Shown: in pieces, positions 8,230 to 51,719 of the stretch
Layout: each line of letters opens with the position of its first letter
Position numbering within the stretch: position 1 is the stretch's first letter
Sequence record: NC_052657.1
Length of the DNA stretch: 64,000 nt
Strand: one strand, 5' to 3'
Source of the DNA: Escherichia phage muut
The notes under the pieces: generated by a model
What the model saw: the letters and a program-made list of their open reading frames with translations, nothing else
Told to the model about the DNA's origin: nothing
Database searches by the model: none
Translations under genes and position numbers: made by a program

Positions 8230-8251
8230 AATGATAACCTTTCTTTGATTT

Positions 8252-8312
8252 GGCGGGAAACCATTTCCCCGCCTTATGTGATAAACTATACCAGATTAAA
8301 AAACGTTGTCAA
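8252..8312 (-). promoter_or_regulatory. Early promoter plus 5-prime stem-loop cassette
   Basis: GGCGGGGAAA-tgg-TTTCCCGCC; TTGACA at 8307-8312. Confidence 0.5.
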
Positions 8313-8321
8313 CTGCTTTTA

Positions 8322-8561: not shown

Positions 8562-8585
8562 GATGTTAATCTCTTTTTCAGTGAG

Positions 8586-8644
8586 GCGGGAACTATTCCC
8601 GCTCTCGATGTAAACTATTATACAGTACTAAGATACTTTGTCAA
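8586..8644 (-). promoter_or_regulatory. Early promoter plus 5-prime stem-loop cassette
   Basis: GCGGGAA-tag-TTCCCGC; TTGACA at 8639-8644. Confidence 0.5.
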
Positions 8645-8647
8645 TAC

Positions 8648-8923
8648 TTAAGTATTGTAAATGTCGTGAATAGTGATAAAGTTTTTACGACCGTAAACAT
8701 GTAAATCAGTATCAATGTAGTGCTTATCAAGTACATCCTCGACGCTTAACGCGGTGTCGTGAATATCTTCGTAGAATTGAGGATCTACAATCTTACTTAA
8801 ATCATCCGGCGTTAACTTATCATTAAGCCATTGAACCGCCTGGATATCTGCTTCACGTTTCCAGTCTTCCAGGTTAGTAGTCAGTACTTGTTCGATTTCG
8901 TTAGCTGTCAGTAGAATCCGCAT
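8648..8923 (-). CDS. Hypothetical early protein (91 aa)
   Basis: ORF preceded by a consensus promoter. Confidence 0.55.
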   Translation of the reverse strand: MRILLTANEIEQVLTTNLEDWKREADIQAVQWLNDKLTPDDLSKIVDPQFYEDIHDTALSVEDVLDKHYIDTDLHVYGRKNFITIHDIYNT

Positions 8924-8956
8924 TTTAATGTTTCCTTATCAGTGGTTGATGTAAGT

Positions 8957-8984
8957 ATTATACTCGTTTACTTTCTATTGTCAA
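8957..8984 (-). promoter_or_regulatory. Consensus sigma70-type promoter (TTGACA-N16-TATAAT)
   Basis: Minus-strand TTGACAatagaaagtaaacgagTATAAT read directly. Confidence 0.6.
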
Positions 8985-9106
8985 ACTATTTTATCAGGGG
9001 GAGTTTTTCGTGTGCCTTACTCCTGGGCTACTTAACGGGGTGTTACTTCGTTCCCCCGTCCTGATATGAAACATTTTACGCTTTTTATTCGTGCTGTCAA
9101 TGCTTT

Positions 9107-9472
9107 TTATAAATCTTTTTTACGTTTAACATCGCTTGCATGGCTGTATACAGCGATCCCATTGTCACGGCAAAAACGGGAAAGATACGCGCCGCGTGAA
9201 AACTCTTTACCTTCCAGGTTGATAACCTTGCTAAACTCTTCTAGGGCAACGGTATCAAAATGATCCCCGTATCCATATTGGAACGGCACGTTTACCACTT
9301 CGATCAGTTTACCGCCGATCTCAACGTCAACCATCAAAGAGAAATAAGTATTACCATAAGACTTTTGAAACCAGCGACGGGCGCTAATATGCACCGCTTC
9401 AATGCTGGATAGTTCAATTTTAGCCGTGTTAGCCAGGGTAGCATAAGCGGAAACATTAATATTTTTAGCCAT
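9107..9472 (-). CDS. Hypothetical protein (121 aa)
   Basis: ORF. Confidence 0.5.
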   Translation of the reverse strand: MAKNINVSAYATLANTAKIELSSIEAVHISARRWFQKSYGNTYFSLMVDVEIGGKLIEVVNVPFQYGYGDHFDTVALEEFSKVINLEGKEFSRGAYLSRFCRDNGIAVYSHASDVKRKKDL

Positions 9473-9618
9473 GATTTTATTCCTTAGTAACGCTTCAATT
9501 TATATAAGCATTATAGCTTACTGATTTCAGTTGTCAAGTGATTTTTTATTTCACCTTTGAGGGGGTTGCCCCGCTCTATGTGGTACATATTACGGGGCTT
9601 GTTTGCATATGTCAAGCC

Positions 9619-14801: not shown

Positions 14802-15239
14802 TTATTTTTGTTGAGATGAACGAATTAAATCAGCAGCAAATTCAATCAGATACACTTTTGGTGCAATAATGATTTTTAGCCAATCAAAATTCGAAAAGAA
14901 AATAACAAATCCTAAAAAGAAAAAGAAAGCACAGACAACAAGACCAACAATAGGTAAAGCAGATACTTCACCATAGCGATCTCGTGACCACAGGCATTCT
15001 TTATCTTTAATTGCTTTTACGAGGTTCCGTACAGCAATAAAAGTAATAAACATAAAGCAAATACTAAAAAGTTGCCATAAACCTGCGGATACTGCTTTCC
15101 ACACTAATAATTGATGAATTACTTCTGGAATTTGTTGTTTTCCAAACTCTACAACATCACTCATTGTTTGAATAGTGACGTTAACCATGTTCAGAAGTAC
15201 ATCAGTTGCTTTATCTGCGATTGCGTTTGTTTTACTCAT
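14802..15239 (-). CDS. Hypothetical membrane protein (about 2 TM segments)
   Basis: Hydrophobic stretches LWQLFSICFMFITFIAV and IVGLVVCAFFFFLGFVIFF. Confidence 0.5.
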   Translation of the reverse strand: MSKTNAIADKATDVLLNMVNVTIQTMSDVVEFGKQQIPEVIHQLLVWKAVSAGLWQLFSICFMFITFIAVRNLVKAIKDKECLWSRDRYGEVSALPIVGLVVCAFFFFLGFVIFFSNFDWLKIIIAPKVYLIEFAADLIRSSQQK

Positions 15240-15253: not shown

Positions 15254-15427
15254 TTACCTTTTAAGGAAACCAATCATAATGAAGAACCACATCCAGGCAG
15301 GAGAGATAATAAAGCCAAAGAAACCGCAAATAACCGCTTTCTTAATCTCTTCCAGACAACCCACCAGGAAAAGAACGAGTGAGACTACAATCCAGATAGC
15401 CATAAATACTGTAACAAAGAAACTCAT
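15254..15427 (-). CDS. Possible small membrane protein (57 aa)
   Basis: Hand-translated MSFFVTVFMAIWIVVSLVLFLVGCLEE...; ribosome-binding site GGGAGAAAGG. Below the track cutoff. Confidence 0.35.
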   Translation of the reverse strand: MSFFVTVFMAIWIVVSLVLFLVGCLEEIKKAVICGFFGFIISPAWMWFFIMIGFLKR

Positions 15428-34290: not shown

Positions 34291-34497
34291 ATGGCAGGTG
34301 TTTTAGCAGTATTAGGTTGTTTTATTGTTGTGTTTTTGATTGTGTTAATCCCTAGTTGGCTACTGCTTTTAGCATACAACTATATGATTGACATTATCGG
34401 CTTAGACTGGCATCATGTTCCTGTAACGTTTTGGAGTGTAGTCTGTGTGACGTTCATTCTTGCGGTACTTCGTGGTATCTTTCAATCTAACAAATAA
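34291..34497 (+). CDS. Hypothetical small membrane protein (68 aa)
   Basis: Two hydrophobic segments. Confidence 0.45.
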   Translation: MAGVLAVLGCFIVVFLIVLIPSWLLLLAYNYMIDIIGLDWHHVPVTFWSVVCVTFILAVLRGIFQSNK

Positions 34498-34837: not shown

Positions 34838-35815
34838 ATGCAACTGGGTTTCCCAATTATTGATGTGGTTGTTTTAGTGGGTATTTTAGTCTTGTCGATT
34901 TGTATTGACTTCTTTGGACACAGAGAAAACAAAGAAATTTCATTTAAATCTGCAATTGGCTGGTCAATTTTCTGGATTGGGGTATCATTAGCCTACTATG
35001 GTTTTGTATACTTCCAACACGGTGCTGATTTTGCGAGCTTGTTCTTGAGTGGGTATGTGTTGGAGAAATCTCTTTCTGTAGATAACTTAGTAGTATTTGT
35101 AGCAGTATTCGCAAGTTTTGGTATTAAAAGCACACACTTGCAGCACAAGATTCTACTTTGGGGTATTGCAGGTGCGATTGTCTTCCGAGGTGTGTTTGTA
35201 GCAGTAGGCACTTACTTGTTGAGTTTGGGCTGGTATGTTAATATCTTCTTCGGTGCTGTCATCCTTTTCTGTGCGGCTAAAATGGTATTCGCTGGAGATA
35301 ATGATGCAGAAGTTGATTACTCTAAACACTGGGCTACTCGCATTGTTCGTAAGCTGTTCCCTGTATCTGATCAGATGGATGGTGAGAAGTTCTTCACAAT
35401 CAAAAATGGTGTTCGTGTAGCAACTCCGGCTCTGGTTTGTGTGTTTGTAATGGAAATGGTTGACGTAATCTTTGCAGTAGACTCTGTTCCAGCAGTAATT
35501 GCAGTGACACAAGAACCTCTGCTTGTATTTTCTTCAATGCTGTGTGCAATTTTAGGTCTACGTGCTCTGTTCTTTGTACTTAGTGTTGCACTGAAATATT
35601 TGGTTCATCTGGAGAAAGCAGTTATCGTAGTCCTGGTGTTTGTGGGTGTAAAACTGATGTATCATCCGTTTGCAGAAACTCTGCACGCAAAAGTGAGTTT
35701 CCTACCAGCACACATTGATCCGACGATCAGTATGTATATTGTGTTAGGTACTCTTGGGTTGGGTGTTATTGCAAGTTTAATCTTCCCTGAAAAAGAAGAC
35801 CAGACTGTTGCTTAA
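34838..35815 (+). CDS. TerC-family integral membrane protein
   Basis: Multi-pass hydrophobic profile with TerC-like motifs DNLVVFVAVF and VDVIFAVDSVPAVIAVT. Confidence 0.6.
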   Translation: MQLGFPIIDVVVLVGILVLSICIDFFGHRENKEISFKSAIGWSIFWIGVSLAYYGFVYFQHGADFASLFLSGYVLEKSLSVDNLVVFVAVFASFGIKSTHLQHKILLWGIAGAIVFRGVFVAVGTYLLSLGWYVNIFFGAVILFCAAKMVFAGDNDAEVDYSKHWATRIVRKLFPVSDQMDGEKFFTIKNGVRVATPALVCVFVMEMVDVIFAVDSVPAVIAVTQEPLLVFSSMLCAILGLRALFFVLSVALKYLVHLEKAVIVVLVFVGVKLMYHPFAETLHAKVSFLPAHIDPTISMYIVLGTLGLGVIASLIFPEKEDQTVA

Positions 35816-35819
35816 TTCA

Positions 35820-35843
35820 TTAAGCCCCTTCGGGGGCTTTGTT
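35820..35843 (+). terminator. Rho-independent terminator (AAGCCCC-ttcg-GGGGCTT)
   Basis: Perfect stem followed by TGTT. Confidence 0.5.
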
Positions 35844-35854
35844 GAGGTGATCTG

Positions 35855-36061
35855 ATGGTGGTTTTACGTGTTCTTTGGATTCTGTTTGAAAATATTTGTT
35901 TTGCTCTAGGGTTGTTTTGTTTGATTTTTATCTTGACAACATATATTGATAACCATACAATTACTATCAACAGGAACGGAGAACAGATGTATTGTTTCTC
36001 TAGGGATTTTAAAAATTGTGTTGAGACTTTAAATGAGAGGGTTACAAATGAAAAACATTAA
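35855..36061 (+). CDS. Hypothetical small membrane protein (68 aa)
   Basis: Hydrophobic N-terminus. Confidence 0.35.
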   Translation: MVVLRVLWILFENICFALGLFCLIFILTTYIDNHTITINRNGEQMYCFSRDFKNCVETLNERVTNEKH

Positions 36062-36638
36062 ATCTTTTATTGTTGCAGTTGTTTTAGGTAGTGTATTGCT
36101 GGTAGGTTGTGATGATTCTGAAAATGTACAAAATCAACGTTACCAGCAAACACCAAATCAGATGGTAGATGAGCAATATGTAAATCAACCTGCACCTCAA
36201 GTTGTTCAAGCAGCACCTGCACAACCTTCAACAGTTGTTGTTCAAGGAGGCGGCAGTGGTTCTTCTGGCGTAGGTGAGTTCGCTACAGGTATGCTTCTTG
36301 GTCATATGTTGAGTGGTAATAGTGGCGGTGGTGGTTATAGAGATGGCGGTAGCAATACAACAATTATCAATAACAACGCTGCTCCTACAACTAATAGTAA
36401 AGCATATACAACACAAAAGCATAGTTTTTATGATAAACAAGGAAATACATATACAACCACTAAACAAAACACAATTAAGCAGCAAAGTGTACAAACGTAT
36501 TCACGCCCATCAACAACAAAAGTGAATAGTAATTACTCTGCTCGTAAGTCTTACTCAAGCCCTATTAGCTCTTATAGTAAGTCTTCGAAAAGTTATTCTT
36601 CGTCGAAACGTAGTTTTAGTAGCTCACGTCGTCGTTAA
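36048..36638 (+). CDS. Putative lipoprotein with low-complexity Ser/Thr/Gly-rich and basic tail
   Basis: Signal peptide with lipobox MKNIKSFIVAVVLGSVLLVGC; C-terminus KSYSSPISSYSKSSKSYSSSKRSFSSSRRR. Confidence 0.5.
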   Translation: MKNIKSFIVAVVLGSVLLVGCDDSENVQNQRYQQTPNQMVDEQYVNQPAPQVVQAAPAQPSTVVVQGGGSGSSGVGEFATGMLLGHMLSGNSGGGGYRDGGSNTTIINNNAAPTTNSKAYTTQKHSFYDKQGNTYTTTKQNTIKQQSVQTYSRPSTTKVNSNYSARKSYSSPISSYSKSSKSYSSSKRSFSSSRRR

Positions 36639-36673
36639 TAATTTAATACAGATTAAATAAGAAGGAGAAACAG

Positions 36674-37525
36674 ATGAAACTAGAAGTTGGTAAAGTATAT
36701 CGCCTGGAAGGTTGGATCTTTAATCAAGAAATTCTTGAGAAGAATAAAGATGGTTTTGAGTTTGTTGGTACTACCAAGGAAAGTATGCACAATGACGAAT
36801 ACTGTAAATTCGTTGGTAAAAATACAGGTCAAGAACAATTTTGCTTTAAGAGCGCAATCGGTGATTATGCTTCTGTAATGCCAACACCAGAAAAAACTCC
36901 GAAGCAATATACTGTCTTTGGTGTAAAACTTGAAGAACTTGTAGAACACCCACGTTTTGAAGAGTTCAAGGTTGCTGCAATGCGCAAGCATTCTGAAATT
37001 AAAATACATAATTTGTTTGATTTAGAAGATCGGTTTGATATCTTTATGTATGATCGCAGGGAAAAGCATTTTGATGCAACGACTTCAAAATTTGCTGCAA
37101 CAGAGGATATTAAAATCCTTGATGTTGATACCTTTCTTCACAATGTATCGTTTGTATTCATTCCTAAATACAAAAAACGTAGTGATCATAAACGTGTGAA
37201 AGGAACTCCTCGTAAAAAACGTACTGTAAACAAAGCAACTTTGCACTTCACTTCTGGTGATAAGTATACTCTCAAAGGGTTTGAAAGTGTTTTGTATGAT
37301 GCTGGAACGGGTAATATCAAGTTTATCATTAAGGCAACCTACAAAGGTACGGTATTGCACGAAGAGGCTGTTACACTACCTGTATTCGATATCTCTCGTG
37401 TTGAGGTACGGGGTGTTAAAGAGTCCTTCGATCTGGATTTCTTAACCACTAATGCTACTGGTTATGTTAATCTGGAAGCAGATGGAGCCTTTATTACTAC
37501 AAATTATTTAGATATGTTTGTTTAA
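36674..37525 (+). CDS. Hypothetical protein (283 aa)
   Basis: ORF with ribosome-binding site AAGGAGAAA. Confidence 0.55.
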   Translation: MKLEVGKVYRLEGWIFNQEILEKNKDGFEFVGTTKESMHNDEYCKFVGKNTGQEQFCFKSAIGDYASVMPTPEKTPKQYTVFGVKLEELVEHPRFEEFKVAAMRKHSEIKIHNLFDLEDRFDIFMYDRREKHFDATTSKFAATEDIKILDVDTFLHNVSFVFIPKYKKRSDHKRVKGTPRKKRTVNKATLHFTSGDKYTLKGFESVLYDAGTGNIKFIIKATYKGTVLHEEAVTLPVFDISRVEVRGVKESFDLDFLTTNATGYVNLEADGAFITTNYLDMFV

Positions 37526-37593
37526 TACTTAATTTGTGTTATGATGGTGGTACAGAGGTATCACCATCTACTAAAGAATATGGAGGAAATTGA

Positions 37594-38697
37594 ATGTCCA
37601 GTCCTTTTATCAGTGCCGTAAAAAGCAAACCGTCTGAAATGAGTGTATTCACGGCAACAACAGAAAAAAGTAAGTCTTTGTTTGCTCCAAGTGCTATGGA
37701 TGCAAGCCCTGTATATGCCCCTGCTGTTGCACGACCTGTACAAATGCTGCCTCCAATGTCTCGTGAAGAGATTGAACAAGTTGGTGCTGATGCAGGACTT
37801 ACTCTTCGTAACCTTAATGCTGAAGTGCTTAAACACCAGCGTTCATCTCAGGGGGATGAAATGAGTGAACGTTTAACTGCACTTATTAAGCAAGCAAAGC
37901 AACTTGATCCTAACTCTATTAAACAATCTAAAGGCTTAGGTAAACTAGTTAAGAAAGTATTAGGTATGAAAGAAGATTTGTTTGGTGAATTTGACACCAT
38001 CAATAATCGTATTGAAGGTTTGGTAAAGACACTACAAACAGACTTGAAAAAAGAAGAAGATTCTTTACGATATCTGCAACGTTTAGAAGAGGCTATTGCA
38101 AAATATGCTCTTAGCTTAAACAGGGATATAGAGCTTCTAACAGCTACTTATGAAAAAGAAGAAGTTCGCCTTAATACACTACCTGAAAATGAAGTAGAAG
38201 AGCGTCAACGTACTCGTGATACTATGGATCTGCTTGAAATTCGTATTGCAGACCTGAAAGCCTTGCGTTTACTGTGTGTTCAGATGGGGCCACGTGTACA
38301 AAGTATGCAGAAAGTATCTGCAAGTTTGATGCGATCAGCCCGTAATATTGTGAATAATGTTATCCCTGCTTACTCTGCAAACTTTTCTATGTATATTGAA
38401 AGTCTACGCCAGAAGAAAGCAGCCGATACACAGAACAATGTGCTGAATGAATTTAATGCTGCTATTGCAATGGGTAGTGATCTGGCTGCACAAAACCAAA
38501 TTGAAGCTACACAACTTGCTAATCGTCAAGTATTGGATATTGAAACATTACGTCGCGATCAAGAAAACTTAGTTAAAATGTTGGAAGAAACTAACCGAAT
38601 CAACACTGAAGCCCGTGCTGCGCGTATTGATTACATTCAAGAAGTGCAATCTCTTGAAGATGGTATGATTCAAACTGTTAAACGTGGTCTACTTTAA
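37594..38697 (+). CDS. TelA-like (toxic anion resistance / KlaB-like) coiled-coil protein
   Basis: Size and coiled-coil layout; central GLGKLVKKVLGMKEDLFGEFDTINNRIEGL...EKEE parallels the TelA family by eye. Confidence 0.45.
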   Translation: MSSPFISAVKSKPSEMSVFTATTEKSKSLFAPSAMDASPVYAPAVARPVQMLPPMSREEIEQVGADAGLTLRNLNAEVLKHQRSSQGDEMSERLTALIKQAKQLDPNSIKQSKGLGKLVKKVLGMKEDLFGEFDTINNRIEGLVKTLQTDLKKEEDSLRYLQRLEEAIAKYALSLNRDIELLTATYEKEEVRLNTLPENEVEERQRTRDTMDLLEIRIADLKALRLLCVQMGPRVQSMQKVSASLMRSARNIVNNVIPAYSANFSMYIESLRQKKAADTQNNVLNEFNAAIAMGSDLAAQNQIEATQLANRQVLDIETLRRDQENLVKMLEETNRINTEARAARIDYIQEVQSLEDGMIQTVKRGLL

Positions 38698-38710
38698 GGA
38701 GAAATATATT

Positions 38711-38917
38711 ATGAATATTAAAATTTACAAACTGTCTGGTTCTATGATTGCTGTTCAGTATGACAATGAAGATCGTTATGTTCTCCTCCAGGATGCTTGG
38801 TTAGATGATCCTAATGTATTCACTGTCCTGCGAGAACTACGCTCTGTCTATACCTATTCTTCTAAAGATGGTTTTGATAGTTCAACGATGGAATTGGTAA
38901 AAGAGGAGAATGTGTAA
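38711..38917 (+). CDS. Hypothetical small protein (68 aa, start trimmed)
   Basis: ATG preceded by TAAGGAGAAA. Confidence 0.45.
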   Translation: MNIKIYKLSGSMIAVQYDNEDRYVLLQDAWLDDPNVFTVLRELRSVYTYSSKDGFDSSTMELVKEENV

Positions 38918-39117
38918 TGAGTAAAGATATTCACTTAACTCGTGAAGAATTGCAAACCATTATGGAAGATGCTTTCATTGATGGTTGGAAACAAGGTCAA
39001 GAATCAGATTGGTATGATGCCGAAGATTTTTTGTATTATCATATGACTGCACCTGTAGACGAGCAAACACACTCTGAAACAACTTTGGCTTTAATTGATC
39101 TTAAGGCTGGTGTATAA
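38917..39117 (+). CDS. Hypothetical small acidic protein (66 aa)
   Basis: ORF, translationally coupled. Confidence 0.45.
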   Translation: MSKDIHLTREELQTIMEDAFIDGWKQGQESDWYDAEDFLYYHMTAPVDEQTHSETTLALIDLKAGV

Positions 39118-39680
39118 TGGGGTGTTTTAGTTTCTTGTGCAAAGAGTCTGGTAATGCTGCTCTTTCTACCTCTTTCGATGGCTCTCCTTGCTACCTATTT
39201 CTTTTGAAAGGTGGTAAGGTTGTCGAAGAGATGTATGGGAATTATGATAGCTATGGTAGTGTTTTCTCTAACGAAGAAGATAAACATGGCAATCGTAAAA
39301 GATTCAAGTGGTCTATGCCTTGGGAAGAAGTTTGTAATTTGATGTTCTCTTCCGATCTTGGAGATGGGATTGCTCTGGTATTAGAAGAACACTTTACAGG
39401 TGAGATCCCAACAGAAAGATCTGAAGAAGACCCTAACCAGGGTTGGGGTGATGGAGAAGAAGATCCAGATTGCTTCTTCAGCACTGAAAATAATAAATTT
39501 AAACGTGTTGACAATCCTTACCACAAAGTGCATAATACTTGCATTGAGACAGAAGAAGACTCAAAGCTAGAAATTGAAGATGATTTAGTTGTAACTATCT
39601 CTTTAAACGATTTGCAAAAAATCACTAGAGAGGCTTTCTATTTAGGCTTGAGAGCAGGTAAAGGAGAAGACAGTGCTTAA
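39117..39680 (+). CDS. Hypothetical acidic protein (187 aa)
   Basis: ORF. Confidence 0.5.
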   Translation: MGCFSFLCKESGNAALSTSFDGSPCYLFLLKGGKVVEEMYGNYDSYGSVFSNEEDKHGNRKRFKWSMPWEEVCNLMFSSDLGDGIALVLEEHFTGEIPTERSEEDPNQGWGDGEEDPDCFFSTENNKFKRVDNPYHKVHNTCIETEEDSKLEIEDDLVVTISLNDLQKITREAFYLGLRAGKGEDSA

Positions 39681-39942
39681 ATTTAATATCAAAGACGACA
39701 AATCAGATGAACCTAAATGTTTTGGAGAACTTGACACAGGTGATACATTCGTATATTATGTTGCCTATCGAGATGCTGGTTTAGATACGTTCAGAAACTT
39801 AGTGTTTATTAAGGTTAATACAAACCAAGCAATGTGTCTTAACGGTTCACAAAGAGGTCAACTTAACTGTATTTTATATGATACAGAAGTGGTAGAAGTG
39901 GATTTAGAAGTTACTAACATTACAGTCAGAAAGGAGAAATAA
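39673..39942 (+). CDS. Hypothetical protein (89 aa)
   Basis: ORF. Confidence 0.45.
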   Translation: MLKFNIKDDKSDEPKCFGELDTGDTFVYYVAYRDAGLDTFRNLVFIKVNTNQAMCLNGSQRGQLNCILYDTEVVEVDLEVTNITVRKEK

Positions 39943-39943
39943 T

Positions 39944-40738
39944 ATGTCCAATAAAATCAGTCTTAAAAAACGTCAAGAAACTCTTACTGTATCCCTGCGT
40001 AAGAAAAAGATTAACGATGTTGTTCTTCGTGTAGGTAGCGCCTTAGATATTTCGGGTAGTATGTGTGAGCTGTATCGTGATGGCACTGTTAGCGATTTTG
40101 TAGGTAAACTGCTGCCGTTTGGTATGAAGTTTGATGATAATGCACAGATTGACATGTGGGCTTTCAATAGTTCTTCTTTTGAACTGCCTCCTGCAACGGC
40201 TGATGTGTATGATGATTATGTCGGCTCTTGCATGTCTAATGTTTGCATCAACGGTGGTACTGCTTATGCTCCAGTAATGCAAGAGATCTATGATACATAC
40301 TTCGGTAGTGTACCTATGAAAAATATTACACGCGAAGTCGTTGAGTATGAAGAAGTTCCGGCTAAAGGTTTCCTTGCTAAACTAACTGGTAAAAAAGAAC
40401 TTGTAGAAGTAACACGTACTGTTGTAGAACAGGTTGTAGATACTGATGCACAAGTTGATCGTACTCCTGCAATGATTTTCTTCCAAACTGACGGGGAGAA
40501 CATGGATACTTCAGCAGTACGTAGCTTACTGAACAAACACCGCAATACGCCTGTTTACTGGTTTATGGTTGGTGTAGGTAATGCAAACTTTAAATTCCTG
40601 AAAGACTTGGCAAAAGAATACGATAATGTTGATTTTATCGGTATTGCAGATTTGTCCTTGTCTGACGAAGAACTTTACGATAAACTGCTATCTGAAGAGT
40701 TTGGTGAGTGGGTTAAAAAATTTGGAGCAAAAGCGTAA
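39944..40738 (+). CDS. von Willebrand factor A (vWA) domain protein, TerY-like
   Basis: MIDAS-like motif VGSALDISGSM; N-terminus (ISLKKRQETLTVSL) resembles the start of the adjacent TerD protein. Confidence 0.55.
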   Translation: MSNKISLKKRQETLTVSLRKKKINDVVLRVGSALDISGSMCELYRDGTVSDFVGKLLPFGMKFDDNAQIDMWAFNSSSFELPPATADVYDDYVGSCMSNVCINGGTAYAPVMQEIYDTYFGSVPMKNITREVVEYEEVPAKGFLAKLTGKKELVEVTRTVVEQVVDTDAQVDRTPAMIFFQTDGENMDTSAVRSLLNKHRNTPVYWFMVGVGNANFKFLKDLAKEYDNVDFIGIADLSLSDEELYDKLLSEEFGEWVKKFGAKA

Positions 40739-40810
40739 AAAACGCTTGACTTTGTAGAAAAGATTAGTAAAATAGACAACGTAAATTAACAACAAAGGAG
40801 ATAATAAATT

Positions 40811-41407
40811 ATGACTCAGAAAATTTCCCTGAAAAAAGGTTCTAGCGAAAAAGTTTCTCTGAAAAAGATTGCACCAGCACTGAAACGCATTCGTCTGGAA
40901 TTCTCTTGGAAATCTAACGAAAAACTGGATCTGGATGTTAGTGCTCTGATTTGCCGACACAATGCATCTGGTCTGCCGGAACTGTTGTCTCCTCGTCACC
41001 TGGTGTGCTACGCGCAGAAATTTGATCCTGAACGTTCTACTTTTGCAGGTGAAGATGTTCGTGATGGTGTAGGACAGATGGAGCAGATTGATGTTACACT
41101 GGATAATATCTCTGCTGAAGCACAGGAAATTGCATTCGTAATTACTATTGATGACGAAACGGGTAAGAAACGCCTTGGTCACGCTACCGAAGGTTTCCTT
41201 AAAATCTTCGATGATGAACGTAATGTTGAACTGCTGGACTTTGACTTCTTGGCTCCAGAACTTGCAGGTAACACCATTTGCCACGTTGCCTCCCTGGTGC
41301 GAGAAGATAGCGAATGGAAACTGAAAGCATATGGTGTGGGTAAAGCTGGGCTTGACATTTACGATGTAGTTAAAGCGTTTGGCGCTGGCGACGATTGGTT
41401 CGAGTAA
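40811..41407 (+). CDS. TerD-domain protein (TerD/TerE/TerZ family)
   Basis: ISLKKGSSEKVSLKK...LDLDVSALI...DGVGQMEQIDVTLDNI...WKLKAYGVG matches the TerD pattern (ISL.KG..V.L...DLD.S...GDDE.I.....W...A.G.G). Confidence 0.65.
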   Translation: MTQKISLKKGSSEKVSLKKIAPALKRIRLEFSWKSNEKLDLDVSALICRHNASGLPELLSPRHLVCYAQKFDPERSTFAGEDVRDGVGQMEQIDVTLDNISAEAQEIAFVITIDDETGKKRLGHATEGFLKIFDDERNVELLDFDFLAPELAGNTICHVASLVREDSEWKLKAYGVGKAGLDIYDVVKAFGAGDDWFE

Positions 41408-41414
41408 TAAATCA

Positions 41415-41440
41415 TAGCGCCCTTCGGGGCGCATATTTTA
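41415..41440 (+). terminator. Rho-independent terminator (GCGCCC-ttcg-GGGCGC)
   Basis: Perfect GC stem followed by an AT-rich tract. Confidence 0.45.
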
Positions 41441-41459
41441 AATAAAAGAGGAGAAAACA

Positions 41460-42062
41460 ATGGGTATTACTTTAGAAGGTCAAAAACTTATTCGTAGCGG
41501 CAATTTTCTTGTGGATGTTGACAACAATCAAGATTATGCTGTAGAAGTTAGTGATGTACTGTTTGATGCTTTGCAGTCTGGTTTCAATTTTGAAGTTTAT
41601 GAAGTAATCCGTGGAACTAAACTCAGAGAAACCCTTGGATCAACTAGTGATGTTTATTCTGCGATCTGGCAATATTTCGGGTTAATGGATGGTAAGACAT
41701 ACCTTACTGATAGTTATTCTGAAGATGTTGTTTATCTTGATATGGAAGAGTTTCGTCGTCTGTTCAAAAGTGAAGAAAATGAAGAAGAGGGTGAACTTTT
41801 TGAAGGAATTATTCTCGAAGGTAATGTTGAAATTGTGTACAAAGCAGGAAAAACATTCCACCTACGCGAAAACGGTAAAGCGAAAGTTGATTTTGTAAAC
41901 AAGACAGTGACAACCGAACATAATTATCTTAAAGATGGTCAACCAGCTTTTGAACGTGTAAAAATTAAATTTAAAGTGTTGTCTGCACTAGTTACGGATC
42001 AAGAACGTATTGATTTTGTAGAAGATGGTGTAGTAACTCATACGAAGGTTTACAATATCTAA
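41460..42062 (+). CDS. Hypothetical protein (200 aa)
   Basis: ORF with ribosome-binding site AAGAGGAGAAAA. Confidence 0.55.
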   Translation: MGITLEGQKLIRSGNFLVDVDNNQDYAVEVSDVLFDALQSGFNFEVYEVIRGTKLRETLGSTSDVYSAIWQYFGLMDGKTYLTDSYSEDVVYLDMEEFRRLFKSEENEEEGELFEGIILEGNVEIVYKAGKTFHLRENGKAKVDFVNKTVTTEHNYLKDGQPAFERVKIKFKVLSALVTDQERIDFVEDGVVTHTKVYNI

Positions 42063-42154
42063 CAGAGTGTAAGAGGGGGATAATCCTCCTCCACTTGCAA
42101 AACAGCCTCTTCTGTGTTACAATAAAAGTTCGTTTAACAAAATAGGAGGCAAGT

Positions 42155-42664
42155 TTGTCAATAAAAACCTTTGTCGCAATTGCGTTACTATCCTTAACTG
42201 CTTTTACATTTACACCTGTTGTGGCGCAAGCCGAAGCTGCAAACGTAAAAACTGCTAAAGTAGTTCACAAGTGTACAAAGCGTGATAGTAAAGAAAATCT
42301 ATTAGCTTGTGCAATCTATGCAGAAAGTCGTAATCAAGGAAAGCGCGGTATGTCTGCTGTTGGTAATGTAGTATTGAATAGGGCTAGAGATTCATATTTC
42401 CCTGATACTATAAAAGAAGTTTTGTTTCAAAAAGGACAATTCTCTTACACAAAGACATTCAACGTTATGGAACGTGATAAGTGGAAGGAAGCTAAGGCTA
42501 TAGCAGAACGTCTACTTTATCTCGATACGCATTTTCCAGAATTACGAATTGCATTAGATATTACAAAAGGAGCATTATACTTTAAAAAATCTACAATAAG
42601 AGCACACTGGGAAAAAGATATGGTTCTAGTGTACCGCTACAAAGAACATCAATTCTATCGCTAA
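42155..42664 (+). CDS. Secreted SleB/CwlJ-like cell-wall hydrolase (candidate endolysin)
   Basis: Signal peptide (SIKTFVAIALLSLTAFTFTPVVAQA) then ACAIYAESRNQ...GNVVLNRA...QFSY, which resembles the Hydrolase_2 family; TTG start after GGAGG. Confidence 0.55.
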   Translation: MSIKTFVAIALLSLTAFTFTPVVAQAEAANVKTAKVVHKCTKRDSKENLLACAIYAESRNQGKRGMSAVGNVVLNRARDSYFPDTIKEVLFQKGQFSYTKTFNVMERDKWKEAKAIAERLLYLDTHFPELRIALDITKGALYFKKSTIRAHWEKDMVLVYRYKEHQFYR

Positions 42665-42674
42665 GGAGATATAG

Positions 42675-42953
42675 ATGAAAGATGGCGTTATCGTTGCAAG
42701 TTATCTTGTTATTGGTCTTACAGAAGAGGATGTACATTACATTAGGAAACATTTAGAACAGTTTGCAATGATGTTCATCGAAGACGAAGACAATGTGGAT
42801 GTTTATTCAATTGAAATGATCAATGATAACGTCTATCCTTGTATAGCTTTACGAGTCGATGAAGATGTTTGGGAACGTTTTTCACGTAGTCACGATAATG
42901 TTGAATGTTCTATGGTTATGTCACAAAGCAACATACTGGGAGTGTTACACTGA
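42675..42953 (+). CDS. Hypothetical protein (92 aa)
   Basis: ORF. Confidence 0.45.
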   Translation: MKDGVIVASYLVIGLTEEDVHYIRKHLEQFAMMFIEDEDNVDVYSIEMINDNVYPCIALRVDEDVWERFSRSHDNVECSMVMSQSNILGVLH

Positions 42954-43183
42954 TGGCTGATGTTATTGAAGTTAACTTTAAAACAAAAAAGAAAGTTGAT
43001 AAGTATACAATCTTAAAAAATATTTGCGTTGTGTGCTTCAATTCTGTAATATATGACTCACGTAAGGGCGAAAATGAAAATGAACCTTACATCCAGATTT
43101 CTAAAGGTAAAGGGCAGTGTATCTGCAAAAACTGTGCTGTAGCAATTAAGGAGGTTGTAGATGAAAACCATTGGGATCAATGA
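42953..43183 (+). CDS. Hypothetical zinc-ribbon protein (76 aa, start trimmed)
   Basis: CVVCFNS...CICKNCAV. Confidence 0.45.
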   Translation: MADVIEVNFKTKKKVDKYTILKNICVVCFNSVIYDSRKGENENEPYIQISKGKGQCICKNCAVAIKEVVDENHWDQ

Positions 43184-43355
43184 TACTGGTGAAGTTGTAA
43201 AATCTTGGGATGATCTTAGTGGTATCCCTACAGATAAACTGATTAAACTGCGTGATGTTTGTCGTGATCATCTTAATGAAACATATAAAGAGTATATGGA
43301 AGCACGAGATCACAGTTTAGCTATCCAAATGGAACTCGCAAAACGTAATCAATAG
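43161..43355 (+). CDS. Hypothetical small protein (64 aa)
   Basis: ORF. Confidence 0.4.
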   Translation: MKTIGINDTGEVVKSWDDLSGIPTDKLIKLRDVCRDHLNETYKEYMEARDHSLAIQMELAKRNQ

Positions 43356-43412
43356 GTAAAACCATTTGGACTTTTTAGTCTAAAAATGCTAAAGTAATAA
43401 TACGGAGGGAGT

Positions 43413-43976
43413 ATGATATTTCACATAACTCCCTATCTTTCTGGAGATATTGGAAAAGGTATCAATGACACAATAAGTGTCTTACCAGAAGATAGTTGGA
43501 TTTGCCTAAGAGACATTGATACAATGTTTCTTCTTCCAGAACAACCTGCTTGGCTGGAATCAATTGTCCGTTCAAATCCTGATTTTGATGTTCTTGGTGC
43601 ATCTTGTAACAGATTGGGATCAACATATCAATTATTTAATAATGAAAGAAGTGAAGATCCGAATATATTACACCACATTGAGATTGCAAAAAGAGCACAT
43701 CTAGAATGGGGAAACTCAATAGAGGAAGTACCTACAGATGCTATCTTAGCAGGATTCTTTCTTCTCTTTCGTAAGAGTCTGTGGAATGAAATTCCTTTTG
43801 AGGAAAGATCAATACAGTTTGATATAATTTTCTCTAAAGCATTGCACGCTAACAATAAAAGGCTAGGTTTACTACGTGGGTTATATTTATTTCACACATA
43901 CCGTTTAGGTAATGATGATCCTAGAAAAGCTGTTTCACACCTTTTACATTGTCAAGACATGAATAAAATTATTTAA
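43413..43976 (+). CDS. Hypothetical protein, possibly glycosyltransferase-like (187 aa)
   Basis: ORF; weak resemblance only. Confidence 0.4.
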   Translation: MIFHITPYLSGDIGKGINDTISVLPEDSWICLRDIDTMFLLPEQPAWLESIVRSNPDFDVLGASCNRLGSTYQLFNNERSEDPNILHHIEIAKRAHLEWGNSIEEVPTDAILAGFFLLFRKSLWNEIPFEERSIQFDIIFSKALHANNKRLGLLRGLYLFHTYRLGNDDPRKAVSHLLHCQDMNKII

Positions 43977-49139: not shown

Positions 49140-51719
49140 ATGGGAGCTTTTACTTTCGACATTGAAAGTAACAACTTGCTTAATGACGAAAGTGTAGATT
49201 ACTTGGCAAGTCCATATCGTTTAAAAGATAGTTTTGCAATGCACTGTATTGTGTGCGAAAGTCATGATACTGGAGAGATTATTGCTTTCCATGATGGTGA
49301 TAAATATCTTTTCGATGGTCGTCCGTATGTTGAGACTGACGGAAAGTATGAATACCGACTGGAGGAATATGAGCATTTAGAATATACCCATTTCCCTCTT
49401 AAAGATTTTCCTGATTTTGTAAATGGAACAGGTAAATTTAAAGGTAATTCAAACTATAAAATTACCAAAGTAGTTGGACATAACATCATTAACTTTGACT
49501 TACTGGCAATTAAATTATTTTTTAAACTCAACTACAGTATTAAGTACAATACTTGGGGTAATAGTAACATTGAAATTTGTGATACTATGATCTTAAGCAA
49601 GACACTAAACCCTGATCGCTTCGGTGGTCATAGTCTGGCAGAGTTATCTAAGAAAGCTGGAGGGGATGTTAAAATTGATTTTAGAAAAAACATCCCTGAA
49701 ACTGAAAGATTTAAAACATTTGCAGCAGATATGCTGTATTACTGTATTTACGATAACAAAGCTAACACCGCAGTGTTCCGTTATTTGATGGAAGAGTGGG
49801 GTGATTATAATAAGTGGTCTGAACCATTTAACTTAGAACAACGTGTAGCTGATATTATTACACGTCAAGAGCACCGTGGCTTTGCTTTCAATATGAAACA
49901 AGCAGAAGATAATATTCGTGATCTGGATGCTCGAATGGAAGCATGTCGTTTAGAGGCAGAACCTGTGCTACCTCCTAAACCTGCTACCAAAGGTTATTTG
50001 AAATCATTCATTCCACCTAAACTACAGTTTAAAAAGAATGGTGAACCTTCAAGTAACATGATAAAGTTTGCAGAGAAACATTCTGGTGAACTTGTACAAA
50101 AAGAAGATGGTTGGTGGTTATTTGCACTAGGTAAAGAGTTTAAACTACCTATTCCAGCAGAAGAACCTATTTGTGATCCTACAGTACCTGCTACTTTAGA
50201 CGACACTACACATATTAAAAACTGGTTAGTTGGTTTAGGTTGGAGTCCATCTGAATATAAAGATAAAGATATCACTCTTAAATCTGGCACTAAGATTAAG
50301 AAAGATGAAGCACAAATGGAGAAAGCTATTCGTGACTATGTTGATCAAACGTTAGCATCTAATTTCTGCCAGGACAGATGTGATCATCTGGAGTGCACAC
50401 CAGAAACTTTGGAATGGAAACTAAGAGATCGTATTGCTAAAGCTAAAGGTCGTGGTGTTAAAGTGCTTACTAACCCTTCCTTTACAAAAGGGCAAGAGAA
50501 AGATATTTGTCCTAACTTGGAAGCACTAGGTGAAAAGTTTCCTTATGCTACGCAGATTGTGCAGTATCTTACGTATAAACACCGTAGGAACTCTATTCTA
50601 GGGGGTGGTGCTGATTGGGAAGAAGATGAAGAGGATTATGATAAAGGTTATCTGGCAGCAGTAAGGGCTGATGGTCGTATACCAACTCCTGCTGCAACGT
50701 GTGATGCAGCTACATCTCGTATGAAACATAGGTTAGTAGCAAATATCCCACGTGTAACATCTCTGTACGGATATGAAATGCGTAACTTATTTGGTGTAGA
50801 AGTTCCAAAATACTTCCAAATTGGTTATGACTTTGATTCTCTTGAGGCAAAAATAGAATCACACTACTGTTGGCGGTACGAGCAGGAACCACACGAATAT
50901 TGTAATGCTCTATTATTGGAAAAACCTAATGATGTTCATACAATGATGGCTCGACGTATTTCTGATACTATTGGGCGTAAGTTTGAACGAAGCCCTGCTA
51001 AATCTGTTAAGTATGGTATTACTTATGGTGCTCAAGCTGCAAAAGTAGCAAAAACTATAGGTAGTGATATGTATACAGGACAGCTTGTATACGATGCTTT
51101 CTGGGAAGCTGCAAAACCTCTTGCACTTCTTAAAGAACGTCTGCATGATTTTTGGGTTAAAACAGGTAAGAAATACATTCTTGGTATTGATGGTAGAAAA
51201 GTACCTACACGATCTGCACACGCAATACTTAACTCTCTGTTTCAGAGTGGTGGTGTTATTTGTGCAAAAAGAGCAATGGTTATCTACGACGATCTTATCG
51301 AAGAAGAAGGATTAGCTGTTGACTTTTTTGTTGATGACTGGAAAAATAAGTCATTCGTTCAACAAATGATTGCATATCACGATGAAGCACAGCTTGAAGT
51401 AACTCGTGATCTGGTGCATTTTAAATGGTTCTCTAAAGAATCTTTAGGTTGGACTCAAGTTGATGATCCAGATGAACAAAAGAAAATTGATAAAGAATGT
51501 TTGGATAAAGTTAATGCCTGGAAAGAAGAGGAAGAGAAACGTACTGGCAAGATTTGGGCTAACGTACATGAGTCTCCAAAAGGTGGTTGGTTTACAGCCT
51601 ACAGTCGTGCTGGAGAATTAGCATCTATCGCTGTTAATAAAGCTGGTGAGTATTACAATCTTAATGTACCTCTCACTGCTGGTTACGATGTTGGTAACTC
51701 ATGGGCCAGTTGTCACTAG
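49140..51719 (+). CDS. Family A DNA polymerase (Pol I / T7-like)
   Basis: Motif A-like YDFDSLEAKIESH, motif B KSVKYGITYGAQAAKVAK, motif C AYHDEAQLEV. Confidence 0.8.
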   Translation: MGAFTFDIESNNLLNDESVDYLASPYRLKDSFAMHCIVCESHDTGEIIAFHDGDKYLFDGRPYVETDGKYEYRLEEYEHLEYTHFPLKDFPDFVNGTGKFKGNSNYKITKVVGHNIINFDLLAIKLFFKLNYSIKYNTWGNSNIEICDTMILSKTLNPDRFGGHSLAELSKKAGGDVKIDFRKNIPETERFKTFAADMLYYCIYDNKANTAVFRYLMEEWGDYNKWSEPFNLEQRVADIITRQEHRGFAFNMKQAEDNIRDLDARMEACRLEAEPVLPPKPATKGYLKSFIPPKLQFKKNGEPSSNMIKFAEKHSGELVQKEDGWWLFALGKEFKLPIPAEEPICDPTVPATLDDTTHIKNWLVGLGWSPSEYKDKDITLKSGTKIKKDEAQMEKAIRDYVDQTLASNFCQDRCDHLECTPETLEWKLRDRIAKAKGRGVKVLTNPSFTKGQEKDICPNLEALGEKFPYATQIVQYLTYKHRRNSILGGGADWEEDEEDYDKGYLAAVRADGRIPTPAATCDAATSRMKHRLVANIPRVTSLYGYEMRNLFGVEVPKYFQIGYDFDSLEAKIESHYCWRYEQEPHEYCNALLLEKPNDVHTMMARRISDTIGRKFERSPAKSVKYGITYGAQAAKVAKTIGSDMYTGQLVYDAFWEAAKPLALLKERLHDFWVKTGKKYILGIDGRKVPTRSAHAILNSLFQSGGVICAKRAMVIYDDLIEEEGLAVDFFVDDWKNKSFVQQMIAYHDEAQLEVTRDLVHFKWFSKESLGWTQVDDPDEQKKIDKECLDKVNAWKEEEEKRTGKIWANVHESPKGGWFTAYSRAGELASIAVNKAGEYYNLNVPLTAGYDVGNSWASCH

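What the first reader, a model, noticed from the sequence alone, without database searches (positions are those of the whole stretch)
42155..42664. Signal-peptide-bearing SleB/CwlJ-like hydrolase as lysis enzyme, with no adjacent canonical holin recognised
The protein has a cleavable-looking signal peptide and Hydrolase_2-like motifs and uses a TTG start. A secreted endolysin would not need a holin for export, and no obvious holin lies next to it. Candidate small membrane proteins are elsewhere (34291, 35855, 20462, 14802, 15254).
Basis: partly seen in the sequence, partly recalled or inferred. Interest (0 to 1): 0.35.

Follow-up and report, generated by a model that had tools for sequence, protein, structure and literature searches.

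The report
Exported SleB-like second wall hydrolase
This gene of a phi92-like E. coli phage encodes a small cell-wall-cutting enzyme with a secretion signal; it is real but already annotated, and it is most likely a second, accessory wall hydrolase rather than the phage's main lysis enzyme.

Summary
Window 42155-42664 (+) is a real 169-aa gene with a TTG start behind an AGGAGG ribosome-binding site. It has a classic Sec-type signal peptide (predicted cut AQA|E after residue 26) and an intact SleB/CwlJ catalytic domain: Pfam Hydrolase_2 at 72 bits against a cutoff of 27, catalytic-motif Glu57, and SleB as the only significant PDB fold match. No membrane protein lies within about 6 kb.

The window is a phi92-like coliphage (Justusliebigvirus), and the protein is Phi92_gp170, already annotated as 'endolysin/cell wall hydrolase'. 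A signal peptide and toxicity in E. coli have been published for a homologue.

The 'lysis enzyme' reading is only partly supported. Outside the window, phi92 carries a signal-less T4-type lysozyme (gp061) and spanins. In four unrelated phage lineages the exported Hydrolase_2 protein sits among replication genes, far from a separate canonical endolysin.

The gene has its own conserved hairpin plus sigma-70 promoter cassette and a weak TTG/GTG start kept across four genera. A distant homologue (PAK_P3 gp151) is not a late-specific transcript.

Best reading: an accessory, Sec-exported lytic transglycosylase placed in the periplasm ahead of lysis. Its real role remains untested. Already known; low to moderate interest.

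The parts
42155..42664 (+). Gene for the 169-aa exported SleB-like hydrolase (= Phi92_gp170), stop codon included
   Evidence: ORF and sequence. 99.4% identical to Phi92_gp170 and to many Justusliebigvirus proteins. Pfam Hydrolase_2 at 72 bits.
42155..42232 (+). Signal-peptide codons 1-26 (MSIKTFVAIALLSLTAFTFTPVVAQA, predicted cut before E27); TTG start codon at 42155-42157
   Evidence: Rule-based n/h/c anatomy. The -3/-1 small-residue rule and Pro at -6 are conserved in homologues. rV5 and T5-like homologues have short classic signal peptides. TTG is conserved in 7 of 7 orthologues.
42335..42658 (+). Hydrolase_2 (SleB/CwlJ) catalytic domain as matched by Pfam, aa 61-168; the fold model is confident over most of aa 38-169 (low-confidence loop 85-99)
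42323..42325 (+). Codon of Glu57, the predicted catalytic glutamate (motif Y-A-E-S-R)
   Evidence: Aligned with the Glu of SleB's YGESRGE motif. Invariant in 20 of 20 close homologues. A Y-x-E-[AS]-R-type motif is present in 141 of 151 family representatives.
42272..42310 (+). Segment bounded by the codons of Cys40 (42272-42274) and Cys52 (42308-42310), the only two cysteines of the mature protein
   Evidence: Invariant in 20 of 20 close homologues. The H-x-C...L-A-C pattern just before the catalytic Glu occurs in 32 of 151 representatives, including most of the closest ~20 listed. A periplasmic disulfide is inferred, not shown.
42144..42149 (+). Shine-Dalgarno AGGAGG, 5 nt before the TTG
   Evidence: GGAGGC is conserved in all 7 orthologues.
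42095..42123 (+). Sigma-70-type promoter-like element: TTGCAA (-35), 17-nt spacer, TG-extended TACAAT (-10)
   Evidence: CTTGC and TG-n-TA-n-A-(A/C)-T are conserved at the same spacing in 7 orthologues at 61-99% protein identity. This exact type occurs once in the window. Function is inferred.
42073..42091 (+). GC-rich stem-loop (GAGGGGGA-TAA-TCCTCCTC) directly upstream of the -35 element; a terminator-like insulator after the upstream gene
   Evidence: Present with compensatory sequence changes in all 7 orthologues. There is no T-run, so it was not called by the terminator scan. rV5, Seunavirus and PaP1 have a canonical terminator hairpin right before the RBS.
42171..42275 (+). Stretch of unusually high nucleotide (synonymous-site) conservation inside the 5' part of the gene
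   Evidence: 93-98% nt identity to Phapecoctavirus against 60-75% for the rest of the gene. dS is 0.13-0.22 for codons 2-26 against about 2.0 for the rest. The same trend holds in 7 orthologues. No supporting RNA structure was found.

Best explanation
The gene encodes a small (16.8 kDa mature, pI 9.7) SleB-family muralytic enzyme, most likely a lytic transglycosylase using Glu57. It is made as a precursor with a cleavable Sec signal peptide and delivered to the E. coli periplasm.

It is an accessory, second peptidoglycan hydrolase of phi92-like phages, not their only endolysin. The canonical, cytoplasmic T4-type lysozyme (gp061), the spanins and the likely holin lie elsewhere in the genome.

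The gene is transcribed from its own sigma-70-type promoter, which sits behind an insulating hairpin. It is translated inefficiently from a conserved TTG codon, so a small amount of enzyme is placed in the periplasm before lysis.

By analogy with known exported endolysins, it would be restrained while the inner membrane is energised. It would then join wall degradation when the holin collapses the membrane potential.

**Shown here:** gene, domain, fold, motif, export-signal anatomy and its conservation, genomic context, and the conserved expression signals.

**Inferred:** cleavage by signal peptidase, enzymatic specificity, timing, disulfide formation, restraint and activation, and the contribution to lysis.
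For: - **Identity.** Searches give the Hydrolase_2 HMM match, the SleB-only sequence and fold matches, and the aligned catalytic Glu. Purifying selection is strong (dN/dS 0.08).
- **Export.** The n/h/c anatomy includes AQA|E and Pro at -6. The c-region is variable but obeys the -3/-1 rule in 20 homologues. rV5 (..LSLPVVA|A) and T5-like (MKAALLLVAALTFSFSSQA|S) homologues have h-regions too short to be membrane anchors. 141 of 151 family representatives carry an N-terminal export signal. The mature part has an even number of Cys residues. The CB7 homologue is published as having a signal peptide and as toxic on expression in E. coli.
- **Accessory status.** phi92 gp061 is PF00959 with the T4 E motif and no signal. 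The Rz-like spanin gp118 is near the terminase. 'Two endolysins/lytic proteins' are reported for BME3/PVP-SE1 and Phapecoctavirus. T5-like phages have an M15 endolysin next to the holin plus a remote SleB-like ORF in the early region. PaP1 has a gp072-gp073-gp074 endolysin-holin-spanin cassette 33 kb from its SleB-like gp029.
- **Link to lysis.** In Seunavirus and Certrevirus a 57-65-aa two-TMD holin-like ORF directly follows the gene. In Seunavirus and rV5, rIIA/rIIB come next.
- **Expression control.** The hairpin, -35 and extended -10 cassette is conserved in 7 orthologues. TTG is kept in 7 of 7, with GTG in rV5 and TTG in Seunavirus.
- **Framework for restraint and activation.**
Against: - No experiment on this protein or on any phage Hydrolase_2 protein was found. 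The searches turned up only annotation-level statements and one 'data not shown' toxicity remark.
- A sigma-70 promoter and the PAK_P3 data fit an enzyme acting during infection at least as well as a terminal lysis enzyme. PAK_P3 gp151 is already transcribed at 3.5 min, with late/early log2FC 0.62, not significant.
- The two-TMD partner seen in Vequintavirinae is absent here, and no homologue was found in the window or in phi92.
- Signal-peptide cleavage was judged by rules only. The 19-aa h-region is long enough to act as a membrane anchor.
- How a freely soluble periplasmic muralytic enzyme would be kept harmless in a Gram-negative cell is not known.
Confidence: 0.5

Rival explanations
1. 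Infection-phase wall remodelling rather than lysis. The exported hydrolase works during the latent period as an auxiliary enzyme. It might loosen or turn over peptidoglycan to support cell enlargement or envelope changes, or release wall precursors. Terminal lysis is left to the canonical endolysin.
For: - The gene sits among replication and nucleotide-metabolism genes in four lineages.
- It has its own sigma-70-type promoter.
- PAK_P3 gp151 is transcribed from 3.5 min and is not late-enriched. The PAK_P3 authors proposed it as an auxiliary metabolic gene that explains the accumulation of wall precursors.
- A canonical endolysin is present in each lineage.
Against: - In Seunavirus and Certrevirus the gene is followed by a holin-like two-TMD ORF and by rIIA/rIIB.
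- The homologue is toxic when expressed alone.
- The PAK_P3 homologue is only ~30% identical and has a membrane-anchor-like N-terminus like PaP1's.
- No direct evidence exists for any remodelling phenotype.
Confidence: 0.25
2. One reading: this is the phage's principal endolysin, exported by Sec, so that no holin is needed to release it.
For: - Databases annotate it as 'endolysin'.
- It has an export signal and an intact catalytic domain.
- The homologue is toxic in E. coli without any holin.
- No holin has been positively identified in this phage group.
Against: - A signal-less T4 E-type lysozyme is encoded elsewhere in the genome.
- In PVP-SE1 the other enzyme, gp146, is the experimentally characterised endolysin (from my own knowledge of Walmagh et al. 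2012, not checked here).
- T5-like phages and PaP1 keep full canonical cassettes alongside their SleB-like gene.
- The weak start codon and non-late expression signals are unusual for a main endolysin.
Confidence: 0.12
3. SAR-type or membrane-anchored enzyme. The N-terminal hydrophobic segment is not cleaved but tethers the enzyme to the inner membrane until depolarisation releases it, as in P1 Lyz and phage 21 R.
For: - The h-region is 19 uncharged residues, 42% of them Ala/Ser/Thr.
- The PaP1 homologue has an N-terminal TM segment with no obvious cleavage site.
- A two-TMD pinholin-like ORF is adjacent in Seunavirus and Certrevirus.
Against:
- An A-x-A-type site with Pro at -6 is conserved while the surrounding c-region residues vary.
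- The rV5 and T5-like homologues have h-regions of only about 11-15 residues.
Confidence: 0.08
4. Virion-associated entry lysin or superinfection-exclusion factor. The enzyme either rides in the particle to pierce the wall at infection, or alters the periplasm or wall to block competing phages.
For: Early-type expression signals and a periplasmic location would suit an exclusion factor.
Against: - A Sec signal peptide is not expected on a virion protein.
- CB7 virion mass spectrometry reported only one structural protein (CB7_55) encoded outside the morphogenesis region, so CB7_83 was not among those reported.
- No exclusion phenotype has been described.
- The catalytic site is fully conserved, which is not needed for a simple blocker.
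Confidence: 0.05

Closest known systems
Phi92_gp170 and its annotated orthologues (phAPEC8-type Phapecoctavirus 'cell wall hydrolase', PVP-SE1 gp243, rV5 ORF2 'SleB', Pectobacterium phage CB7_83)
   Same: The protein is 99.4% identical to Phi92_gp170. It shares the same architecture (signal peptide plus Hydrolase_2) and the same genomic module. For CB7_83 the signal peptide and toxicity in E. coli are published.
   Different: Nothing substantive; this is the same gene. Compared with the Vequintavirinae versions (~35-40% identity), the phi92-type gene lacks the downstream two-TMD ORF and rIIA/rIIB. It has a promoter-like element instead of a terminator abutting the RBS.
Bacillus SleB (spore cortex-lytic enzyme; PDB 4f55, 4fet) and CwlJ
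   Same: Same catalytic domain family and fold, with the catalytic Glu motif conserved. SleB is also made with a signal peptide and is a lytic transglycosylase that depends on that Glu.
   Different: No N-terminal PG-binding domain: only about 20 residues separate the signal peptide from the catalytic domain. The host is a non-sporulating Gram-negative, so the substrate cannot be muramic-lactam cortex. Only ~23-24% identity over the structural alignment. It also has a clade-specific Cys pair before the catalytic Glu.
Lys44 of Oenococcus phage fOg44 (signal-peptide exported endolysin, 'e-endolysin')
   Same: Cleavable Sec signal peptide on a phage muralytic enzyme. Export is holin-independent, and the proposed mechanism is accumulation outside the membrane with activation on loss of membrane potential.
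   Different: Lys44 is the phage's endolysin, sits in a lysis cassette and acts in a Gram-positive host. Here the enzyme belongs to a different catalytic family, in a Gram-negative host, remote from other lysis genes, alongside a canonical endolysin. Its activation behaviour is untested.
SAR endolysins (P1 Lyz, phage 21 R)
   Same: Sec-dependent export of a Gram-negative phage muralytic enzyme. Cysteines lie close to the catalytic residue, which resembles the disulfide-caged regulation of Lyz (resemblance from memory, not tested).
   Different: The N-terminus looks cleavable rather than like a Gly/Ala-rich releasable anchor. The catalytic family differs, and there is no adjacent pinholin in this phage.
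Remote 'SleB-like' ORFs of T5-like phages (e.g. AKFV33 ORF81, SP3 gp079) and of Pakpunavirus/Nankokuvirus (PaP1 gp029, PAK_P3 gp151)
   Same: Homologous Hydrolase_2 domain (~30-35% identity) with an N-terminal export signal. They are located among early or replication genes and coexist with a canonical endolysin-holin pair.
   Different: ATG start codons, different Cys patterns, and a PaP1-type N-terminus that looks like an uncleaved anchor.

Membership tests
Pfam Hydrolase_2 (PF07486; SleB/CwlJ catalytic domain) | Sequence match to the family model above the curated threshold | tested here: met
   72.1 bits against a cutoff of 27, E=6.5e-20, profile positions 2-100 of 100.
Pfam Hydrolase_2 (PF07486; SleB/CwlJ catalytic domain) | Conserved catalytic glutamate in the Y-x-E-[AS]-R motif | tested here: met
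   Glu57 aligns with the Glu of SleB's YGESRGE motif. It is invariant in 20 of 20 homologues, and the motif is present in 141 of 151 representatives. That this Glu is the one essential for SleB activity rests and on my own knowledge of the 2012 structure papers, which could not be opened.
Pfam Hydrolase_2 (PF07486; SleB/CwlJ catalytic domain) | SleB-type fold of the catalytic domain | tested here: met
   Foldseek against PDB: 4fet and 4f55 are the only hits with E<=0.001, with probability 1.00 and target TM-score 0.68-0.71. Model pLDDT is 73, with a weak loop at residues 85-99.
Pfam Hydrolase_2 (PF07486; SleB/CwlJ catalytic domain) | Muralytic (lytic transglycosylase) activity | not testable with these tools
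   Needs purified protein, sacculi and muropeptide analysis.
SleB proper (spore cortex-lytic enzyme) | N-terminal peptidoglycan-binding domain preceding the catalytic domain | tested here: not met
   Only Hydrolase_2 is found by Pfam. The mature N-terminus is about 20 residues long before the domain begins. SleB's two-domain layout is described.
SleB proper (spore cortex-lytic enzyme) | Acts on muramic-lactam-containing spore cortex during germination | tested here: not met
   The gene belongs to a virulent coliphage, and the host makes no spores. The conclusion follows from context.
Signal-peptide exported endolysin (e-endolysin, Lys44 type) | Cleavable Sec-type signal peptide | tested here: inconclusive
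   The anatomy and its conservation fit: n/h/c regions, Pro at -6, A-x-A, and short h-regions in rV5 and T5-like homologues. However, no trained predictor or experiment was available.
Signal-peptide exported endolysin (e-endolysin, Lys44 type) | Is the enzyme responsible for host lysis at the end of infection | not testable with these tools
   Context argues that it is at most one of two enzymes. This needs phage knockouts.
Signal-peptide exported endolysin (e-endolysin, Lys44 type) | Held inactive outside an energised membrane and activated by depolarisation | not testable with these tools
   No data exist for this protein.
SAR endolysin | Uncleaved, weakly hydrophobic Gly/Ala-rich N-terminal TMD that can exit the membrane | tested here: not met
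   The h-region has no Gly, is 42% Ala/Ser/Thr, and is followed by a conserved small-x-small site. Homologues have h-regions too short for a TMD. The judgement is rule-based.
SAR endolysin | Cognate pinholin or holin encoded next to it | tested here: not met
   No forward-strand TM ORF lies in 42300-43500, and the nearest TM protein is about 6 kb away. A two-TMD ORF is adjacent in Seunavirus and Certrevirus, but it has no homologue here.
Canonical holin-endolysin-spanin lysis cassette | Clustered with holin and spanin genes | tested here: not met
   The neighbours are TerD-like, vWA-TerF-like, small soluble ORFs and glycosyltransferases, with no lysis PHROGs. The spanin lies near the terminase, outside the window.

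The most novel reading that the evidence does not exclude
Exported Hydrolase_2 enzymes may form a distinct functional class of phage protein rather than 'second endolysins'. They recur in at least four unrelated virulent phage lineages of Gram-negative hosts: Stephanstirmvirinae, Vequintavirinae, T5-like Demerecviridae, and Pakpunavirus/Nankokuvirus. In each lineage they sit apart from the canonical endolysin and among early or middle genes.

Under this reading, a periplasmic lytic transglycosylase is deliberately produced in small amounts (weak start codon, insulated promoter) during the latent period. It would remodel or partially open the wall, for example to prime the sacculus for rapid lysis, to feed wall turnover products into phage metabolism, or to exclude competitors. 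The conserved Cys pair next to the catalytic Glu would serve as a redox or disulfide switch.
Probability: 0.2. Interest if true: 0.55.

Novelty: already known. Interest (0 to 1): 0.25.

Why it matters
As an annotation the finding adds nothing. The gene is Phi92_gp170, labelled endolysin or cell wall hydrolase in dozens of records, and its signal peptide has been noted for a homologue.

What remains open is modestly interesting. Several large virulent phages of Gram-negative bacteria carry a canonical endolysin plus a separately placed, exported SleB-type hydrolase, and nobody has shown what the second enzyme is for.

Settling that would clarify how lysis is organised in phages without a lysis cassette. 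This group includes therapeutic candidates such as phi92-, rV5-, T5- and PAK_P-like phages.

It would also show whether a soluble muralytic enzyme can sit safely in the Gram-negative periplasm. Finally, it would tell enzybiotic developers which of the 'two endolysins' is worth expressing.

Tried and rejected
- **Conserved RNA structure.** I looked for one to explain the synonymous-site conservation at the 5' end. RNAalifold on 7 orthologues gave only -7.3 kcal/mol with a positive covariation term, so this was rejected as an explanation. The constraint stays unexplained.
- **Relocated holin partner.** I searched the window and all of phi92 for a relocated homologue of the Seunavirus 57-aa two-TMD ORF. 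BLASTP and TBLASTN gave only compositional noise, with best E of 0.005-0.3 on short hydrophobic stretches.
- **Promoter class.** I asked whether the gp170 promoter type defines a class in the window. The exact pattern occurs only once. The near-consensus promoters in the early region at 3.8-9.6 kb are a different, stronger type.
- **Lysis functions in neighbours.** PHROG scans of nine neighbours returned only families of unknown function.
- **Experimental work on phage Hydrolase_2 lysins.** None was found beyond annotation-level statements.
- **SleB structure papers.** I could not open the two 2012 papers to quote the catalytic residue number.
- **Cys40-Cys52 distance.** Model coordinates are not exposed, so I could not measure it.
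- **Lipoprotein reading.** Rejected: no lipobox follows the h-region, and the first Cys is residue 40.
- **Virion-lysin reading.** Rejected on the signal peptide and on the CB7 virion proteome.

Full report
**What is there.** Window 42155-42664 (+) is a 169-aa ORF that starts with TTG, 5 nt after an AGGAGG Shine-Dalgarno. The first in-frame ATG is codon 66, downstream of the catalytic motif, so TTG is the real start.

The protein matches Pfam Hydrolase_2 (PF07486, the SleB/CwlJ catalytic domain) at 72.1 bits against a curated cutoff of 27. It also matches PHROG 938 'endolysin'. The only solved structures with detectable sequence similarity are the SleB catalytic domains of B. cereus and B. anthracis. 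Glu57 lines up with the Glu of SleB's YGESRGE motif.

An AlphaFold model (mean pLDDT 73) is confident over most of residues 38-169, with a low-confidence loop at 85-99. It has SleB as its only significant PDB fold match (probability 1.00, target TM-score ~0.7). The catalytic glutamate is essential for SleB's lytic transglycosylase activity.

**Where it comes from.** Ten kilobases around the gene are 98.5-99.5% identical to many Justusliebigvirus genomes (phi92, VivaForever, Nernie, alia and others). The protein is Phi92_gp170 apart from the translated start codon (99.4%). Records call it 'endolysin', 'putative cell wall hydrolase' or 'hypothetical protein'. The window corresponds to the reverse complement of roughly phi92 84.8-148.6 kb.

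**The signal peptide.** No trained predictor was available, so this rests on anatomy and conservation.
- The N-terminus has a short basic n-region (MSIK), a 19-residue uncharged h-region, Pro at -6 and A-Q-A|E.
- In 20 close homologues the c-region varies (AQA, ATA, VYA, AKA, VHA, ALA, AYA, VEA) but keeps small residues at -3/-1. That is the pattern expected for a signal-peptidase site.
- More distant homologues have unmistakably short signal peptides: rV5 MKIKIFAIILSAFLSLPVVA|A and T5-like SP3 MKAALLLVAALTFSFSSQA|S.
- By a simple rule-based classifier, 141 of the 151 best family representatives from a 1.84-billion-protein library carry an N-terminal export signal.
- SleB itself is made with a signal peptide.
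- The h-region contains no glycine, unlike SAR domains.
- Buttimer et al. reported a signal peptide for the Certrevirus homologue CB7_83 and toxicity on expression in E. coli, as data not shown.

I conclude that export is very likely and that cleavage is likely but unproven.

- phi92 gp061 is a 166-aa, signal-less Phage_lysozyme (PF00959). Its [24 protein letters not shown] motif resembles the T4 lysozyme N-terminus as I recall it. It sits next to the PhoH-like gene whose PVP-SE1 homologue is gp147.
- phi92 also has an Rz-like i-spanin near the terminase and an 88-aa two-TMD membrane protein after the endosialidase gene.
- Papers on this phage group state that they carry two lytic proteins: a lysozyme, and the SleB-like hydrolase in the replication module.

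The same duality appears in unrelated lineages that carry a homologous exported Hydrolase_2 gene.
- T5-like phages have an M15 peptidase endolysin next to the holin and a remote SleB-like ORF in the early region.
- PaP1 has an endolysin-holin-spanin cassette (gp072-074) 33 kb from its SleB-like gp029.
- In rV5 the gene follows a MoxR ATPase and overlaps the start of rIIA.

So this protein is best described as a second, accessory wall hydrolase.

**Links to lysis nevertheless exist.** In Seunavirus, the ORF right after the SleB-like gene encodes a 57-aa protein with two TMDs and a basic tail, followed by rIIA and rIIB. In Certrevirus, a 65-aa class II holin candidate overlaps the gene's end.

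In this window no such partner follows, and no homologue of it exists in the window or in phi92. The nearest membrane proteins are about 6-8 kb upstream, beside a TerC-like gene.

**How it is expressed.** Aligning the upstream region of seven orthologues (61-99% protein identity; two phage records and four metagenomic contigs) shows a conserved cassette:
- a GC-rich stem-loop whose arms change in a compensatory way;
- immediately after it, an invariant CTTGC (-35-like) and a 17-nt spacer;
- an extended -10 (TG-n-TA-n-A-A/C-T);
- GGAGGC, and then TTG.

TTG is the start in all seven, in Seunavirus too, and rV5 uses GTG. Only 3 of 49 nearby genes use TTG. In rV5, Seunavirus and PaP1 an intrinsic terminator abuts the RBS.

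These features point to deliberately low, sigma-70-dependent expression, not late-only expression. The only transcriptome touching a homologue agrees. PAK_P3 gp151 is transcribed at 3.5 min and is not late-enriched (log2FC 0.62, adjusted p 0.34). Its authors suggested an auxiliary role in wall degradation. That homologue is distant, so this is supportive evidence only.

**Mechanism proposed.** The precursor is exported by Sec and cleaved after Ala26. The basic 16.8-kDa enzyme probably forms a Cys40-Cys52 disulfide in the periplasm. The Cys pair is invariant in the close clade and lies just before the catalytic Glu.

By analogy with exported endolysins such as Lys44, the enzyme would be restrained while the membrane is energised and would act when a holin collapses the membrane potential. 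It would then assist the cytoplasmic T4-type lysozyme.

The steps from cleavage onward are inference. A remodelling role during infection is the main rival. A virion role is unlikely, given the signal peptide and the absence of CB7_83 from the reported CB7 virion proteome.

**An unexplained detail.** The 5' part of the gene (42171-42275) is 93-98% identical at the nucleotide level to Phapecoctavirus, against 60-75% for the rest. dS is about tenfold lower in the signal-peptide codons, and the trend holds in seven orthologues. No overlapping ORF and no convincing conserved RNA structure explains it. Selection on codon choice or mRNA accessibility in a signal-peptide-coding region is a plausible but untested reason.

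**Verdict.** The feature is already known and annotated. It is a SleB-family catalytic domain but not a SleB orthologue, since it has no PG-binding domain and no spore context. It works like a signal-peptide e-endolysin but cannot be filed as the phage's endolysin. The unanswered question of what the conserved second, exported hydrolase does gives it low-to-moderate interest.

Noticed in passing
window 42171-42275: The signal-peptide-coding and following codons are conserved at synonymous sites. Nucleotide identity to Phapecoctavirus is 93-98% against 60-75% for the rest of the gene, and dS is 0.13-0.22 against about 2. There is no overlapping ORF and no convincing RNA structure.
   Followed up: partly
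L010 (Salmonella phage KE22, Seunavirus) 2489-3019: The deposited CDS for the SleB-like 'endolysin' starts at an internal ATG (2636) and so lacks the signal peptide. The conserved TTG at 2489, behind GGAG, gives MKIKALLLATACAFSLTTTPVLA|KEN... This is a start-codon mis-annotation, caused by the non-ATG start.
   Followed up: yes
L010 3024-3197: A 57-aa ORF with two TMDs and a basic C-terminal tail lies directly between the SleB-like gene and rIIA/rIIB in Seunavirus. It has holin or pinholin-like topology and is annotated as hypothetical. No homologue was found in the window or in phi92.
   Followed up: partly
window 34838-42062: A Ter-type stress-module cluster lies immediately upstream of the hydrolase: an 8-TMD TerC-like protein, a TelA-like 'tellurite resistance' protein, vWA-TerF-like, TerD-like, and a 200-aa ORF of unknown function. 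Metagenomic relatives keep the order as far as their contigs reach: TelA in one contig, and vWA-TerF-like, TerD and the 200-aa ORF before Hydrolase_2 in two. A functional link is unknown.
   Followed up: no
window 15254-15427 (-) and 14802-15239 (-): Adjacent 57-aa and 145-aa ORFs, each with two long hydrophobic stretches read by eye (= phi92 gp219/gp220), lie upstream of an AAA ATPase gene. They are among the better holin/antiholin-like candidates in the window by size and topology, but nothing ties them to lysis.
   Followed up: partly
window 34291-34497, 35855-36061, 36048-36638: Beside the TerC-like gene lie a 68-aa two-TMD protein, a 68-aa one-TMD protein and a 196-aa predicted lipoprotein (…VLLVGC lipobox). 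All belong to PHROGs of unknown function.
   Followed up: partly
window ~3800-9600, minus strand: An array of near-consensus sigma-70 promoters (TTGACA-N16/17-TATAAT) sits in the spacers between small ORFs, as expected for the immediate-early region of the phage.
   Followed up: partly
one search hit list (MG065639, MG065645, MG065656, MG065689; also OR584014, OK210077): Records named 'Campylobacter phage A150/A145/C3/A110a' are 98.7% identical over 10 kb to this coliphage. A 'Pseudomonas phage PsgM04F' and a 'Serratia phage KKP_3264' also fall in the same subfamily. The host labels may reflect contaminating coliphages or unusually broad host range.
   Followed up: no
window 49140-51719 versus phi92 96335-99649: The DNA polymerase I ORF is 859 aa here and in VivaForever, but the phi92 record annotates a 3315-nt gene. 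This suggests an insertion (intron, intein or homing endonuclease) or a different gene model in phi92.
   Followed up: no
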